26,926 bases of DNA, from the NCBI GenBank assembly GCA_051439605.1, contig JBFRWN010000026.1, positions 1-26,926 of the forward strand, given 5' to 3'. Source of the stretch: Synechococcus sp. Lineage in GTDB: Bacteria > Cyanobacteriota > Cyanobacteriia > Thermostichales > PCC-7336. Below the pieces are notes generated by a model that saw only the letters and a list, made by a program, of their open reading frames with translations, ran no database searches and had not been told where the DNA came from. Made by a program: the position numbers and the translations under genes. Shown here one piece after another: positions 12,029 through 15,723 of the stretch (its first letter is position 1; each line of letters begins with the position of its first letter).

Positions 12029-12670
12029 ATGCTCGCAGCTCAACTTACAGCTGAAGTGAAATGGTTTTTCAAAGGGAGACTGACTGACAATGTGGCGCAC
12101 TGGTTTGAGACAGTTATGCATAACCCTCAAGTGCAGCCAAAAAGAGTTGATTTCTATATATTCAATCGAGAAACAGTATCCCTTGGGATGAAGATTCGAG
12201 AAAATCGAATCGAAATTAAACAGTGCTTCTGTCGTGACAGAGACATCACCTTTAACAAGCAGGTTATCGGCAATATCGAGCACTGGAAAAAGTGGAGTTT
12301 CCCGTTAGCAAAAATGCCCGATACAGATACAGTATTGGTGCCAGACTGGATCCCAGTCGAGAAACAGCGAAAGCAGTGCTGCTTTACTCTCGATCGCAAC
12401 ACTCAAGCTGTCACTGCCGTCGTTCCCACATTCGACCTGCTCCAATGTTGTACTGTCGAGCTCACCGAACTGCTTCTATTCCAAGATAAATGGTGGAGTT
12501 TGGGATTGGAAGCTCGGGGAGAGGAGCATGACATTCGAGACTTATTGGTCCTCGTAGCCAGCCATATTTTTAAGAGCAACAAACCTCCCTCTCTCAACAG
12601 CCAAAATTCCTACGGCTATCCTCAATGGCTCCAGATAGCTAGTGCCAGAAACTATTCCTCTGAGTTTTGA
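12029..12670 (+). CDS. CYTH-like (triphosphate tunnel fold) hypothetical protein
   Basis: EVKWFF, R.DFY, MKIRENRIEIK, WKKWS, VEKQR, CTVELTEL, WWSLGLEA pattern of CYTH-like proteins. Confidence 0.6.
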   Translation: MLAAQLTAEVKWFFKGRLTDNVAHWFETVMHNPQVQPKRVDFYIFNRETVSLGMKIRENRIEIKQCFCRDRDITFNKQVIGNIEHWKKWSFPLAKMPDTDTVLVPDWIPVEKQRKQCCFTLDRNTQAVTAVVPTFDLLQCCTVELTELLLFQDKWWSLGLEARGEEHDIRDLLVLVASHIFKSNKPPSLNSQNSYGYPQWLQIASARNYSSEF

Positions 12671-12842
12671 GACTCAAGATTCAGCAAAATATAGGACATA
12701 ACCGGCAATCGATAACCAATAAATACTGCTATGGGCGATCGATATTTCCCTCACTGGCATGCAAAAACAAACCGTGTCAGACTAGATTAAAGAGAAGGCC
12801 GTTAACCGGCCAAATTACTTTCTTAACCTACGGAAACCGATC

Positions 12843-13013
12843 GTGAAAGTTCCTAACTGGAAGGCTAGCGGTCGCCTGCAAGAGAAAGGCCGCAAGCGAC
12901 ATCGTCGCCGCCAACAAAAAGCTAAAGCCTTCAAAGCTCTAGCCAATAGACTGAAAGACTTCGGCGATCGCCGGGGTCTTTCAGTATTAAAGGGACAATG
13001 CCATTTAGGCTGA
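12843..13013 (+). CDS. Small Arg/Lys-rich protein (56 aa; not in ORF track), candidate nonstop-regulated ribosome-rescue-type factor
   Basis: GTG start. MKVPNWKASGRLQEKGRKRHRRRQQKAKAFKALANRLKDFGDRRGLSVLKGQCHLG* has 18 K/R and 3 D/E. It fills the gap between two plus-strand genes and carries an internal hairpin. Confidence 0.6.
   Translation: MKVPNWKASGRLQEKGRKRHRRRQQKAKAFKALANRLKDFGDRRGLSVLKGQCHLG
12951..12990 (+). terminator. Long hairpin (intrinsic terminator or RNase III-type site) inside the 56-aa ORF
   Basis: CTGAAAGACTTCGGC-GATC-GCCGGGGTCTTTCAG forms a 15-bp stem with two G-U pairs, and the 3' arm runs into TCTTTCAGTATT. It ends 26 nt before the stop codon. Confidence 0.65.
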
Positions 13014-13103
13014 CACTCTACTCAGTCCGATGCAGCTTAGCCCACCATTCCCACAGTTCATTTGCAGCAGGCGATAATGGGAATAGGAGTTTGGAGTACT
13101 CCG

Positions 13104-14036
13104 ATGGTTGTCACAAAATTGCAGTCCAGTAACAACGAAACTAAGCCTGATACTGCCCATCCCTACAACTTCTCGAACGCAGAAATAGCGGATGTCCTCG
13201 AACAGGTTGCGGACTTACTTGAAGCCCAGGAGGCAAACCCCTTTCGGGTACGGGCCTATTGGGAAGGGGCACAAACCATTCGCCAGCAGAAAACACCTGT
13301 CGTAGATCTGCTGTTAGCCGATGGAGTCGCAGGATTAGAACAACTCCCTGGTATTGGCAAGAGCTTAGCCGGATCGATTGAAGAATTGGCATACACCGGC
13401 AGATTGCGATCGCTCGAACGCCTCCAGGGGGAAGTCACCCCCGAAGATTTATTTGCCACAATTCCCGGTATTGGCGAAGAGCTCGCTTGTCATATCCATC
13501 GGGAACTGGGTATCGAAACCTTAGAGGAACTAGAGTTAACCGCACACGACGGTCGCCTCGAAACAGTCAAGGGATTTGGCCACCGCCGCGTTCGCCTCGT
13601 TCGCGATGCATTAGCAAGCATGTTGAGTCGCTCTTCTCGCCGACATGCCCGCCTAATCGAGCATCAGGATGCCGTTCGACACAAGCCAATCCCCTTACAT
13701 CCCCCTGTTTCCCTGCTGTTAGCCGTAGATACTCGCTATCGCCGTCTAGCCTCCGCAGGACAGCTGAGAACGATCGCCCCGCGACGCTTTAACCCGGAGG
13801 GCAAAAGCTGGCTACCCATCATGCATTGGGAGCAAGACAGCTGGACGTTCACAGCGCTATTTTCCAATACAGCTCGAGCGCACCAGTTGAACAAAACCCG
13901 AGATTGGGTGGTGATTTTCTACGAGCGGGCCGGTCGAGAAGGGCAATGCACGGTTGTGACGGAAACGCGCGGTTCGCTCGTAGGCCAGCGGGTGGTGCGC
14001 GGACGGGAAATAGAATGCAAACCGATATCGAGGTGA
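13104..14036 (+). CDS. Helix-hairpin-helix protein related to the PolX N-terminus, lacking polymerase and PHP domains
   Basis: NAEIADVLEQVADLLE...NPFRVRAY, LPGIGKSLA, IPGIGEELA..I...LGIETLEEL, VKGFG. C-terminal IAPRRFNPEG..WLP..H...FTALFSNTARAH.L.KTRDWVVI domain. GGAG precedes ATG 13104. Confidence 0.8.
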   Translation: MVVTKLQSSNNETKPDTAHPYNFSNAEIADVLEQVADLLEAQEANPFRVRAYWEGAQTIRQQKTPVVDLLLADGVAGLEQLPGIGKSLAGSIEELAYTGRLRSLERLQGEVTPEDLFATIPGIGEELACHIHRELGIETLEELELTAHDGRLETVKGFGHRRVRLVRDALASMLSRSSRRHARLIEHQDAVRHKPIPLHPPVSLLLAVDTRYRRLASAGQLRTIAPRRFNPEGKSWLPIMHWEQDSWTFTALFSNTARAHQLNKTRDWVVIFYERAGREGQCTVVTETRGSLVGQRVVRGREIECKPISR

Positions 14037-14134: not shown

Positions 14135-14392
14135 TTACTTCTTGTTTAACCGCACCGCATACCATTCCACCGTCTGCCCAGGAGCGATCGGCAATTCGCA
14201 GGTGGTTTCAATCAGCCGCTGTGCTTGCTCCTGCACCGTACCAAATTGCTTTACATCTGCATCCACTGCATCGGGATATTCCAGCAACAGCTGCTGCAAA
14301 AACTCCGCTAGCTCTACAGAGGTGACAAACTCTTCCGCCGCCCCCGGCATCAGCAGGACGTAATGATTTTCTTCAAACAGTTGTTCGGGCAT
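14135..14392 (-). CDS. crr7: CRR7-family NDH-1 assembly factor
   Basis: HYVLL.PG..EEFVT..EL...L...Q..LIET.CEL...PG..VEWYAVRL motif. Confidence 0.85.
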   Translation of the reverse strand: MPEQLFEENHYVLLMPGAAEEFVTSVELAEFLQQLLLEYPDAVDADVKQFGTVQEQAQRLIETTCELPIAPGQTVEWYAVRLNKK

Positions 14393-14421: not shown

Positions 14422-15723
14422 CTAGCTATTCGACCTTACGCTCTCGGGAGCGGGCACCGCTTCAAGTTCGGACTGCGGCTCGGCAGGCTTGCTAAACCAG
14501 CGGAAATACAAAGACTGGGTCATTTCCTTAAGCGGAAATAACACGTAGGTCAGCGGATTGATCGTGACAATAATATTGCGGCTATCCCGTTTTGCAGCCT
14601 TCACAATCCGTCGGGCCACCCCTTCCCCCGACATCACCCCGATGGGGTTGAGGTTGCTCTTGAACGGACCCAAAATTAGTTTGCGGACGGTGCAGCGGGC
14701 ATCCAAACGGCGCAGCGTTACCAGATCCCCTAAGGCGCGCTTCGAGAGTTCGTACAGAGGACTGACGGCAGGCAGAATCTCCGCCTCAGAGGTGTTCACC
14801 CAAACTTCCTTGGTAGCGATATCTGCATTGGTGGTCACCTGCCCTAAAAACAAGTCCAGCAAGCGCAAACTAGAAAATGTATTAATTTCATACGATCGCG
14901 CGATCGCCTCTGGCGTCCTATCCCCATGACCGTTAATACCGTGGTTGAGCACTAAAATATCCACCTTGGCTTGACACAACCGAGCCGCCAACGCCTGTTC
15001 TTGTCCCACAGACCACGTCAGAGTGCGCAGAGCGATCGCCTCGCCATCCACCTCCACCGACAGTTCCCTATTGCTGGAGGTGAGGGCAATCGGTTTAGCT
15101 CCGGCGCGATGCAACTCAGCCAGCAGGGCTCGCCCCAGCGTTCCGCTCGCCCCTGTTACCGCAATTCTTTTGCCTTTCAACGACAGAGCTGTACCCATCA
15201 GCTTGTCCACCAGCGTCAACGTACTGCAATAGTAAGCGCGATCGTCATCAAAGTGGTGCCGCCAATGATAAGGCCGGTTCACCCAAAAAGGGGTTGGAGC
15301 TGCTTGAAAGGGGCCAGGCATATGAGTCAAATCCGTCAACTCCCTAGCCCATTCGCTACCGCTGCCGCGAGCGATACAGCTAGCCAAGAAACTGAGGACG
15401 TAAAGAATGCCCAGAGTGGTCCAATTGGCATGAGCTGGATCGAGCAGGAAAGCAACCCACCCAAACGCGATCGCGAACGCCAGCATCACCAAACATTCCG
15501 GAAAATCGTTATGCCATTGTGCCTGCCGATAAATCTCGGGGCTGGCAAACGTTAAATCTCGGCGGAATACGCGGTGGTGCCAAGCGTGATGGCGGTACAG
15601 CCAAGGCCATTGGTGGGACAACGCGTGGTAGCAGTCCCGCACAATCTCCGCCCACAGCACAGACCCCAAACCCCAGCCCACAACCGAGAGTACATGAGAC
15701 CAATCGAGCCAACTGAACAGCAT
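14422..15723 (-). CDS. mgdE: Monoglucosyldiacylglycerol epimerase (sterol-desaturase-like domain + SDR)
   Basis: EIVRDCYH..H, HAWHHRVF, NRPYHWRHHFD His boxes, then TGASGTLG, ILVLNHG, WVNTSEAE..PA.SPLYELSKR, RKLILGPFKSNLNPIGVMS. Confidence 0.88.
   Translation of the reverse strand: MLFSWLDWSHVLSVVGWGLGSVLWAEIVRDCYHALSHQWPWLYRHHAWHHRVFRRDLTFASPEIYRQAQWHNDFPECLVMLAFAIAFGWVAFLLDPAHANWTTLGILYVLSFLASCIARGSGSEWARELTDLTHMPGPFQAAPTPFWVNRPYHWRHHFDDDRAYYCSTLTLVDKLMGTALSLKGKRIAVTGASGTLGRALLAELHRAGAKPIALTSSNRELSVEVDGEAIALRTLTWSVGQEQALAARLCQAKVDILVLNHGINGHGDRTPEAIARSYEINTFSSLRLLDLFLGQVTTNADIATKEVWVNTSEAEILPAVSPLYELSKRALGDLVTLRRLDARCTVRKLILGPFKSNLNPIGVMSGEGVARRIVKAAKRDSRNIIVTINPLTYVLFPLKEMTQSLYFRWFSKPAEPQSELEAVPAPESVRSNS

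What the first reader, a model, noticed from the sequence alone, without database searches (positions are those of the whole stretch)
12783..13013. Hidden 56-aa basic ORF with a hairpin before its stop: candidate cyanobacterial ArfA/BrfA-like ribosome-rescue factor
Seen: a TAGATT -10-like box (12783-12788), a small 5' hairpin GGCCG-TTAAC-CGGCC (12797-12811), then a GTG ORF with 14 K/R in its first 36 residues (EKGRKRHRRRQQKAKAFK). A 15-bp stem at 12951-12984 covers codons 37-48 and runs into a T-rich stretch before the stop at 13011. Established: E. coli arfA (RNase III hairpin) and B. subtilis brfA (internal terminator) are small basic proteins made from nonstop mRNA, destroyed through tmRNA tagging, and accumulating only when trans-translation fails. 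Inference: this ORF uses the same logic. It has no ArfA KGKGSY motif, so it would be a separate family; I know of no such factor described in cyanobacteria. From memory, the MKxPNW start also resembles tiny basic hypothetical proteins of picocyanobacteria and cyanophages (unverified).
Basis: partly seen in the sequence, partly recalled or inferred. Interest (0 to 1): 0.85.

Follow-up and report, generated by a model that had tools for sequence, protein, structure and literature searches.

The report
Cyanobacterial micro-gene ending inside its terminator
A tiny, very basic protein gene, found here and in most cyanobacteria examined, carries its transcription terminator inside the reading frame, so its messages probably lack a stop codon, as in the two known bacterial back-up ribosome-rescue genes.

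Summary
The 56-codon GTG ORF (12843-13013) and its internal hairpin are real. The ORF is a conserved gene. All three other species of the genus have it. Codons 1-39 are 80-91% identical in DNA against 52-62% in the flanks, and changes fall mainly on third codon positions (5/5/18). After codon 39 the frames diverge, but each copy keeps a G+C-rich stem-loop and T-rich tract before its first stop.

A profile of the 40-residue core found the family in 246 of 401 sampled cyanobacterial genomes, 120 of 169 genera. It has no Pfam, NCBIfam, PHROG, PDB or Rfam match. In 92 of 103 distinct loci a terminator lies inside the ORF. The next in-frame stop is 11 or more nt beyond the stem in 87 of these 92. 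Eleven loci have an ordinary or ambiguous stop.

The gene has the brfA/arfA architecture but is unrelated in sequence. A ribosome-rescue function is inferred only. I found no RNA data, the RF2 complex job gave no verdict, and ArfB often co-occurs. Interest is high and the function is untested.

The parts
12783..12788 (+).
   Evidence: Present in the sequence. The consensus scan found 0 promoter-like sites in 12300-13500. The upstream region is not conserved in 3 relatives. Function unsupported.
12797..12811 (+). 5-bp G+C hairpin (GGCCG / loop TTAAC / CGGCC) upstream of the ORF
   Evidence: Not present in the aligned upstream regions of G001-G003. It could be a 5'-terminal stem of the mRNA or a leftover terminator of the upstream gene. 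Not resolved.
12843..13013 (+). 56-codon GTG ORF, stop included
   Evidence: Homologues start at the same position with ATG (G001, G003) or GTG (G002).
12843..12959 (+). Conserved core, codons 1-39: basic, predicted as one long helix
   Evidence: 82-87% amino-acid identity in the genus. DNA identity is 80-91% against 52-62% in the flanks. Variable sites by codon position are 5/5/18. The profile matched 246 of 401 genomes. AlphaFold2 on alignment A3 gives helices 5-9 and 15-41, mean pLDDT 83.
12950..12985 (+). 16-bp stem-loop inside the ORF (A-rich arm, G+C core, U-rich arm; loop GATC)
   Evidence: RNAfold. All four genus copies have a stem-loop at this position, with different sequences.
12957..12978 (+). 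G+C-rich core stem of the terminator; holds HIP1 GCGATCGC at 12964-12971
   Evidence: 9 pairs, -13.7 kcal/mol.
12979..12988 (+). U-rich tract TTTCAGTATT; inferred 3' end of most transcripts, giving a product of about 48 aa
   Evidence: Inference from the general rule that intrinsic termination occurs about 7-9 nt after the stem. No RNA data.
12989..13010 (+). Unconserved tail codons between the terminator and the stop
   Evidence: Tails differ completely in sequence and length among 7 genus-level proteins of 52-85 aa and among 103 loci.
13011..13013 (+). First in-frame stop (TGA), 32 nt after the core stem

Best explanation
The ORF is a real micro-protein gene and belongs to a large, unnamed cyanobacterial family. 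The conserved product is a basic helix of about 40 residues. An intrinsic terminator sits inside the reading frame, directly after the conserved codons and before any stop codon. Most transcripts should therefore end near 12985-12988 and carry no stop.

The following chain is inferred by analogy with brfA and arfA. Ribosomes run to the 3' end and stall. While tmRNA-SmpB works, the nascent peptide of about 48 aa is tagged and degraded. When trans-translation is saturated or lost, the peptide accumulates.

Most likely function (inferred, untested): a back-up rescue factor. Its basic helix would bind the empty mRNA channel of stalled ribosomes and help a release factor free the peptide.

My confidence by layer: real conserved coding gene about 0.95; transcripts mostly end inside the ORF about 0.7; protein level coupled to tmRNA about 0.6; release-factor-dependent rescue about 0.3-0.35. 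The figure below is for the whole chain.
For: Coding: homologues in 3 of 3 other species of the genus. In codons 2-38, 12 variable codons are all-synonymous and 8 change the residue, and variable sites by codon position are 5/5/18. In 77 loci of the main subfamily, diversity by codon position is 8.9/5.7/22.0. The core is 80-91% identical in DNA against 52-62% in the flanks.

Architecture: all 4 genus copies have a stem-loop plus T-rich tract before the first stop, which lies 12 to 95 nt past the stem. Across the phylum, 92 of 103 distinct loci have a terminator inside the ORF, with median hairpin energy -18.6 kcal/mol. The in-frame stop is >=11 nt past the G+C core stem in 87 of the 92, 7-10 nt in 2, and 0-6 nt in 3.

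Caller control at dG<=-12: 94 of 103 real windows, 22 of 515 dinucleotide shuffles, 14 of 102 upstream windows.

Open frame: the linker from core to stem end is 16-154 nt and unconserved. Within the 92, a stop occurs before the stem end in 8 in frame +1 and in 67 in frame +2; frame 0 has none, by the definition of the group. Beyond the terminator, the distance to the next stop is of the same order in all three frames: medians 55.5, 39 and 35 nt.

Stand-alone unit: the downstream neighbour is convergent in 29 of 43 loci, and neighbours are diverse.

Partners present: tmRNA, SmpB, RF1, RF2 and ArfB.

Precedent: brfA has a rho-independent terminator within its coding region, is made from non-stop mRNA, and accumulates only without trans-translation (PMC6881298, passages read). 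ArfA, ArfB and SmpB sense the empty mRNA tunnel with basic C-terminal parts, helical in ArfB and SmpB (PMC5378476, passages read). The core here is predicted as one long basic helix.

Gap to fill: a survey lists arfA in 0 of 162 cyanobacterial genomes (PMC11633108, Table 1).
Against: There is no experimental or RNA evidence. No RNA run could be listed for the window, so 3' ends are inferred.

The window's own U-tract is weak (4 T of 8) and could allow much read-through to the stop at 13011.

Eleven of 103 loci do not fit. Nine have a stop 1-5 codons after the core and no terminator call (L037, L040, L041, L042, L061, L108, L110, L121, L125). L038 has its stop in the 3' arm of the hairpin. L137 has a hairpin without a T tract.

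There is no detectable sequence relation to ArfA, to BrfA or to anything solved.

Distribution is not complementary to ArfB: both 126, micro-protein only 120, ArfB only 94, neither 61 of 401. The own genome has ArfB. The survey in PMC11633108 lists rqcH in 161 of 162 cyanobacteria, so a further back-up is not obviously needed.

If ribosomes follow RNA polymerase closely, an intragenic terminator hairpin may not form. I do not know how tightly transcription and translation are coupled in cyanobacteria.

Among known rescue factors the basic part is C-terminal and a separate part contacts the release factor. No such second part is evident here beyond residues 1-14.
Confidence: 0.35

Rival explanations
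1. The message is non-stop and the protein level is coupled to tmRNA, but the protein does something other than release-factor-dependent rescue. It might damp translation, act as a hibernation or RNA-binding factor, or signal that trans-translation is saturated.
For: The same architecture evidence applies. Nothing in the sequence points specifically to a release factor. ArfB and, according to PMC11633108 Table 1, rqcH and mutS2 already cover rescue in many of the same genomes. A 40-residue basic helix could bind any RNA.
Against: The only genes known to be built this way (arfA, brfA) are rescue factors. A product that appears only when non-stop ribosomes pile up is most simply a remedy for them.
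Confidence: 0.25
2. It is an ordinary small basic protein, for example ribosome- or nucleic-acid-binding, made from full-length message. The terminator inside the frame is leaky or is suppressed by the translating ribosome. The tail is dispensable junk and the stop position simply drifts.
For: Tails are unconstrained. The window's U-tract is weak. Nine of 103 members work with a stop directly after the core. Some Pseudanabaena copies have a second hairpin further downstream that could end read-through transcripts (L044, L051, L055, L056).
Against: If the tail were dispensable, stops should often arise in the 16-154 nt between core and terminator. Only the 11 of 103 loci that lack an in-ORF terminator stop earlier, 9 of them directly after the core. 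Frame +2 has stops before the stem end in 67 of 92. Most hairpins are strong canonical terminators with 5-7 T in 8. Any terminated transcript is non-stop whatever the intent.
Confidence: 0.25
3. It is a leader peptide or attenuator: translation through the hairpin controls read-through into the downstream gene (here the helix-hairpin-helix protein at 13062-14036).
For: In the window and in G002 a same-strand gene follows within about 50-100 nt. A small ORF overlapping a terminator is the classic attenuator layout.
Against: The downstream gene is convergent in 29 of 43 loci, and neighbours are unrelated between lineages. The 40-residue core is under strong purifying selection across the phylum, unlike leader peptides, whose sequence matters only at a few codons.
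Confidence: 0.05
4. It is a non-coding small RNA with a terminator, and the ORF is accidental.
For: A short stand-alone transcription unit that ends in a terminator.
Against: Third-position bias of substitutions. A conserved start codon position. Conservation at protein level down to 25-38% identity across subfamilies. No Rfam match.
Confidence: 0.02

Closest known systems
brfA (yqkK) of Bacillus subtilis
   Same: A small stand-alone gene with a typical rho-independent terminator inside the coding region, so that the message has no stop. The product is shortened by the untranscribed tail. tmRNA is present. (PMC6881298, passages read.)
   Different: No sequence similarity: no PDB match at E<=10 for the protein or the family profile (that BrfA chains are in the PDB copy is my recollection, not checked). 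This family is phylum-wide in cyanobacteria, whereas BrfA has a narrow range (recalled). RF2 dependence and tmRNA control are shown for BrfA and untested here.
arfA of Escherichia coli and other proteobacteria (Pfam PF03889)
   Same: A small basic protein made from a non-stop message because of a hairpin inside the ORF. Basic residues sense the empty mRNA tunnel (PMC5378476).
   Different: The Pfam ArfA model finds nothing in the own genome at E<=1 and nothing in 11 family members. ArfA has a hydrophobic N-terminal part that contacts RF2 and a basic C-terminal part. Here the basic helix fills most of the core.
ArfT of Francisella and the basic C-terminal tails of ArfB and SmpB
   Same: A short charged helix as the element that recognises stalled ribosomes (PMC6514570; PMC5378476). 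The core here is predicted as one basic helix.
   Different: No family match. I do not know whether ArfT is made from a non-stop message. ArfB carries its own GGQ domain, and the micro-protein has none.
Cyanophage 37-residue basic micro-gene ending inside its terminator (earlier AI note e1-5986224)
   Same: Same logic, reported in T4-like cyanophages (an unchecked AI note).
   Different: No sequence relation found: tblastn of the core against 50,697 phage records gave no match at E<=10, and there was no PHROG at E<=1 for the window protein.

Membership tests
ArfA (Pfam PF03889) | Match to the family profile | tested here: not met
   No match for the window protein (E<=0.01) or for 10 relatives (E<=1). 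A six-frame search of G000-G003 gave 0 of 4 over the cut-off and none in G000 at E<=1; the control rang over the cut-off in E. coli.
ArfA (Pfam PF03889) | Translated from a message that lacks the stop codon because of a hairpin inside the ORF | tested here: inconclusive
   The hairpin and T tract precede the stop in the window and in 92 of 103 loci, but no RNA 3' ends could be examined.
ArfA (Pfam PF03889) | Recruits RF2 to non-stop ribosomes | not testable with these tools
   The complex job with the genome's own RF2 returned no verdict. That is not evidence either way.
BrfA (B. subtilis YqkK) | Rho-independent terminator within the coding region, upstream of the stop | tested here: met
   Sequence level only: the core stem 12957-12978 plus U-rich tract, with the stop 32 nt later. 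G001 and G003 have canonical T tracts.
BrfA (B. subtilis YqkK) | Sequence similarity to BrfA | tested here: not met
   No chain of the PDB copy matched the protein or the profile at E<=10, apart from chance hits to a sigma factor and a designed coil. No Pfam or NCBIfam family matched.
BrfA (B. subtilis YqkK) | [quoted passage not shown] | not testable with these tools
   Needs a tagged reporter in wild type and in ssrA or smpB mutants.
ArfB (NCBIfam NF006718) | GGQ-bearing RF-1 domain | tested here: not met
   The micro-protein has no RF-1 domain. A separate true ArfB lies at G000 C53:5567-5974 (183 bits against a cut-off of 100).
New cyanobacterial micro-protein family (alignment A3) | 40-position basic core with invariant W and L, roughly W-x-(A/S)-(S/P)... 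R-x-R-Q-x-K-x-K-x-F-x-x-L-x-x-x-L-K | tested here: met
   The window ORF scores E = 1.5e-16 against the profile.

The most novel reading that the evidence does not exclude
This is the missing release-factor-dependent back-up ribosome-rescue factor of cyanobacteria. It would be a phylum-wide family (61% of sampled genomes), unrelated in sequence to ArfA, BrfA and ArfT, and self-limited through tmRNA because its terminator sits inside its own reading frame. That would make it a third, independent invention of the same regulatory design.
Probability: 0.33. Interest if true: 0.9.

Novelty: new variant of a known kind. Interest (0 to 1): 0.85.

Why it matters
Genes deliberately transcribed without a stop codon are known from only two cases that I can cite, arfA and brfA. 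Both are back-up ribosome-rescue factors switched on when tmRNA fails.

This report shows the same layout in an unannotated micro-protein family. It was found in 246 of 401 sampled cyanobacterial genomes, and databases hold it only as 'hypothetical protein' entries with erratic lengths of 40-159 aa.

If the inference holds, it names a new rescue or translation-stress factor for a whole phylum in which a survey found no arfA. It would also explain why gene callers give these ORFs inconsistent ends. It also offers a simple genomic signature, a conserved core followed by a terminator that precedes the stop, for finding further such genes.

The idea is directly testable in any genetically tractable cyanobacterium that carries the gene. 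Nostocaceae and Pseudanabaena carry it.

Tried and rejected
RNA evidence: the look-up of sequencing runs on window 12600-13200, kind rna, listed no RNA holder.

Complex prediction of the core (alignment A3) with the genome's own RF2 fragment (L030:925-1941) gave no verdict: score 0.01 against a mark of 0.32, controls not run.

Searches that found nothing:
- Metagenome contig scan with A1: 557 pattern matches, none confirmed.
- Genome-contig scan with A1: only the two genus loci already known.
- tblastn of the core against phages: no match.
- PHROGs: nothing for the window protein.
- PDB sequence and profile searches: nothing meaningful.
- Rfam: 0 at gathering score over the whole window, and two chance-level hits in 12650-13100.
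- ESM Atlas with a subfamily-B member: only unnamed cyanobacterial clusters.

Complementarity with ArfB was tested and rejected. The 2x2 counts were 126/120/94/61, against about 135 expected for 'both' under independence. The genomes are related, so no test statistic is given.

Conserved operon or attenuator: rejected on neighbour orientation and diversity.

Promoter conservation: rejected.

Norf1/AtpTheta and the other small proteins named in PMC5126843 (passages read) start differently and are not this family.

Paper searches:
- (listings and abstracts) gave nothing about such a gene in cyanobacteria.
- looked for three peptide motifs of the family in full texts and found 0 papers.
- ('PCC 7336' with 'RNA-seq') found 0 papers.
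- Supplements were not examined.

My first strict terminator caller (no mismatches allowed) missed bulged hairpins. It was replaced by an RNAfold-based caller after inspecting the 16 misses.

Full report
OBSERVATION.
- TAGATT lies at 12783-12788.
- A 5-bp G+C hairpin lies at 12797-12811.
- A GTG ORF of 56 codons runs from 12843 to 13013, with 14 K/R in its first 36 residues.
- A strong stem-loop lies inside the ORF. The region folds better than 199 of 200 dinucleotide shuffles.
- The stem has a G+C core (12957-12978, containing the HIP1 palindrome) flanked by an A-rich 5' arm and a U-rich 3' arm. Read from the core, the following tract is TTTCAGTATT.
- This is the build of an intrinsic terminator, with a weak U-tract in this genome. 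The first in-frame stop comes 32 nt later.

IS IT A GENE? Yes.
- A six-frame search of 61 related genomes found clear matches only in the three other species of the genus (E = 1e-15 to 2e-16). The matches covered residues 1-38/39 only.
- The big protein index held seven genus-level sequences of 52-85 aa. One is named as a hypothetical protein of Synechococcus sp. PCC 7336.
- These are nearly identical to residue 38 and unrelated afterwards.
- At DNA level the core is 80-91% identical to the window. The 100 nt upstream (53-62%) and the 80 nt beyond the hairpin (52-61%) are at background (for the upstream alignment).
- Within codons 2-38 the variable sites fall 5/5/18 on codon positions 1/2/3. 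Twelve variable codons are purely synonymous and 8 change the residue.
- The start position is shared: ATG in two species, GTG in two.
- This excludes a chance ORF and a non-coding RNA.

THE HAIRPIN IN RELATIVES. All four genus copies carry a G+C-rich stem-loop directly after the conserved codons, followed by a T-rich tract. Two of them (G001, G003) are textbook terminators with runs of five or six T. The in-frame stop lies 32, 95, 12 and 90 nt beyond the stem in the own genome, G001, G002 and G003.

A MUCH LARGER FAMILY.
- A profile of the seven sequences, run against 1.84 billion representatives, found nine more distant small proteins of 40-83 aa with the same core.
- A profile search of 401 genomes sampled across the class first gave 28 genomes. 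It also revealed a second, larger subfamily (core around RWESPR ... KG(K/R)GGSARQRQ ...).
- With a 40-position core profile from 26 loci (A3), 246 of 401 genomes matched at E<=0.001. That is 225 of 361 high-quality genomes and 120 of 169 genera, nearly always in one copy.
- None matched in family f3 (0 of 40; genomes of 1.6-3.7 Mb, by size probably the picocyanobacteria, which is my inference), nor in f6 (0 of 4) or f23 (0 of 8).
- Two further protein searches returned 1175 and 1139 clusters. Nearly all carry no name or 'hypothetical protein' or 'uncharacterized protein'. They come from Pseudanabaena, Nostoc, Anabaena, Calothrix, Nodularia, Stenomitos and others.
- No member matched Pfam, NCBIfam or PHROGs. 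The profile matched nothing meaningful in the PDB. The Atlas showed only unnamed cyanobacterial clusters.
- Three peptide motifs of the family occur in no paper of the library.

TERMINATOR BEFORE STOP ACROSS THE FAMILY.
- I collected 115 loci. Of these, 112 had a profile hit, giving 103 distinct gene sequences.
- An RNAfold-based caller looked for a single hairpin of -8 kcal/mol or better abutting a T-rich 8-mer. It made a call in 96.
- I set aside four calls as weak or lying behind an earlier stop: L038, L040, L125 and L137.
- That leaves 92 of 103 loci with a terminator inside the ORF.
- Their median hairpin energy is -18.6 kcal/mol. The core-to-stem-end distance is 16-154 nt (median 49). 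ORF lengths are 52-159 codons.
- The first in-frame stop begins >=11 nt past the G+C core stem in 87, 7-10 nt in 2, and 0-6 nt in 3. In L050, L051 and L106 the distance is small only because A-U pairs were counted into the stem.
- Within the same stretch, frame +1 has a stop before the stem end in 8 of 92 and frame +2 in 67 of 92. Frame 0 has none by construction of the group.
- Among all 103 loci, only 11 have a stop that is not behind a terminator.
- Beyond the terminator, the distance to the next stop is of the same order in all three frames: medians 55.5, 39 and 35 nt.
- Tails differ even between close relatives.
- Caller control at -12 kcal/mol: 94 of 103 real windows, 22 of 515 dinucleotide shuffles, 14 of 102 natural windows upstream of the gene.

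THE ELEVEN EXCEPTIONS.
- Nine stop 1-5 codons after the core and have no terminator call: L037, L040, L041, L042, L061, L108, L110, L121 and L125. In L108 and L110 the stop sits in the 3' arm of a small hairpin formed with the last core codons.
- L038 has its stop in the 3' arm of an otherwise typical terminator.
- L137 has a hairpin without a T tract.

WHAT THE ARRANGEMENT IMPLIES. The steps from here on are inferred.
- Terminated transcripts would end a few bases after the stem, at about 12985-12988 in the window. They would encode about 48 residues and no stop. The family median would be 62.
- Ribosomes reaching such ends are substrates of tmRNA-SmpB. The genome has both, together with RF1, RF2 and a true ArfB.
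- This is the design shown experimentally for brfA: a rho-independent terminator inside the coding region, product tagged and degraded, accumulation only without trans-translation (PMC6881298, passages read). That paper likens it to arfA.
- Known sensors of stalled ribosomes use basic, often helical tails in the empty mRNA tunnel (PMC5378476, passages read). The core here is predicted as a short helix (5-9) and one long basic helix (15-41) with mean pLDDT 83.
- A survey of 15,259 genomes lists, for 162 cyanobacteria: smpB 161, ssrA 155, arfB 90, arfA 0, rqcH 161, mutS2 150 (PMC11633108, Table 1, read).

WHAT ARGUES FOR CAUTION.
- No RNA data could be obtained.
- The RF2 complex job gave no verdict.
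- The family often co-occurs with ArfB: 126 genomes have both, 120 only the micro-protein, 94 only ArfB, 61 neither. There is no complementary pattern beyond single families such as f3 (ArfB 40 of 40, micro-protein 0 of 40) and f2 (3 of 23 against 16 of 23).
- Within the genus, ArfB was found in the own genome and G001. It was not found in the complete genome G002 or in G003, which is 85% complete.
- The window's own U-tract is the weakest in its genus.
- A ribosome following the polymerase closely could suppress an intragenic hairpin.
- A minority of lineages do well with an ordinary stop.

RIVALS.
- An attenuator of the downstream gene is unlikely. The downstream neighbour is convergent in 29 of 43 loci and neighbours are diverse.
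- A non-coding RNA is excluded by the codon pattern.
- An ordinary protein with a drifting stop cannot explain why stops avoid the variable linker but not the region after the terminator.
- A tmRNA-coupled protein with another function remains fully open.

COMPARISON AND NOVELTY. It works like brfA (terminator in the frame) and arfA (hairpin in the frame). It is not a member of either family, because the profile tests failed. An earlier AI note describes a cyanophage micro-gene with the same logic. I found no sequence link to it. I rate this a new variant of a known kind: a known regulatory design on a new, phylum-wide protein family of unknown but plausibly rescue-related function.

Noticed in passing
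L037 (G277), L038 (G389), L040 and L061 (G236), compared with L098 and L127: Three genomes carry two family members. G277 and G389 each have one main-subfamily copy with an in-ORF terminator plus one divergent copy with an ordinary or hairpin-embedded stop. G236 has two early-stop copies.
   Followed up: partly
L108, L110, L121, L125: A 47-aa variant ends three or four codons after the core. In L108 and L110 the stop lies in the 3' arm of a small hairpin formed with the last core codons, with no T tract. This may be a different way of ending or processing the message.
   Followed up: partly
L044, L045, L051, L055, L056 (Pseudanabaena-like genus g14): A second hairpin follows the in-ORF terminator and overlaps or just precedes the eventual stop codon, giving tandem terminator-like elements.
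   Followed up: no
window 12964-12971; also the hairpin loops of L089, L093, L111, L113, L115: The HIP1 palindrome GCGATCGC sits at the tip of the terminator hairpin in several unrelated lineages.
   Followed up: no
G000 C53:5567-5974; G001 C32:36581-36955; G002 and G003: ArfB is present in the own genome and G001. It was not found in the complete genome G002 or in G003, which is 85% complete. Its presence therefore varies within one genus.
   Followed up: partly
window 13062-14036 (+): A 324-aa protein with HHH_8 and HHH_5 domains that resembles only the N-terminal part of PolX (67 bits against a cut-off of 426). No polymerase or PHP domain was detected. G002 has the same gene downstream of its micro-gene.
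   Followed up: no
window 12029-12670 (+): A 213-aa ORF directly upstream with no Pfam or NCBIfam match.
   Followed up: no
window 14422-15723 (-) and 14135-14392 (-): A 433-aa protein with a weak fatty-acid-hydroxylase match (24 bits, below the 31-bit cut-off) followed by a short-chain dehydrogenase domain. Next to it is a CRR7 (chlororespiratory reduction 7) homologue.
   Followed up: no
window 12920-12944 (-): The consensus scan calls a terminator-like site on the minus strand inside the conserved core. It mirrors the A-rich coding sequence and is probably a by-product of it.
   Followed up: no
L049, L062, L063, L087, L091, L057: Several neighbours are RNA or translation enzymes: an RlmL-like methyltransferase, a TRAM/U5 methyltransferase in G001 and G003, a CCA-adding/poly(A) polymerase family protein, an RsmD-like methyltransferase and a class II tRNA synthetase. 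There is no consistent pattern, and I did not test for enrichment.
   Followed up: no
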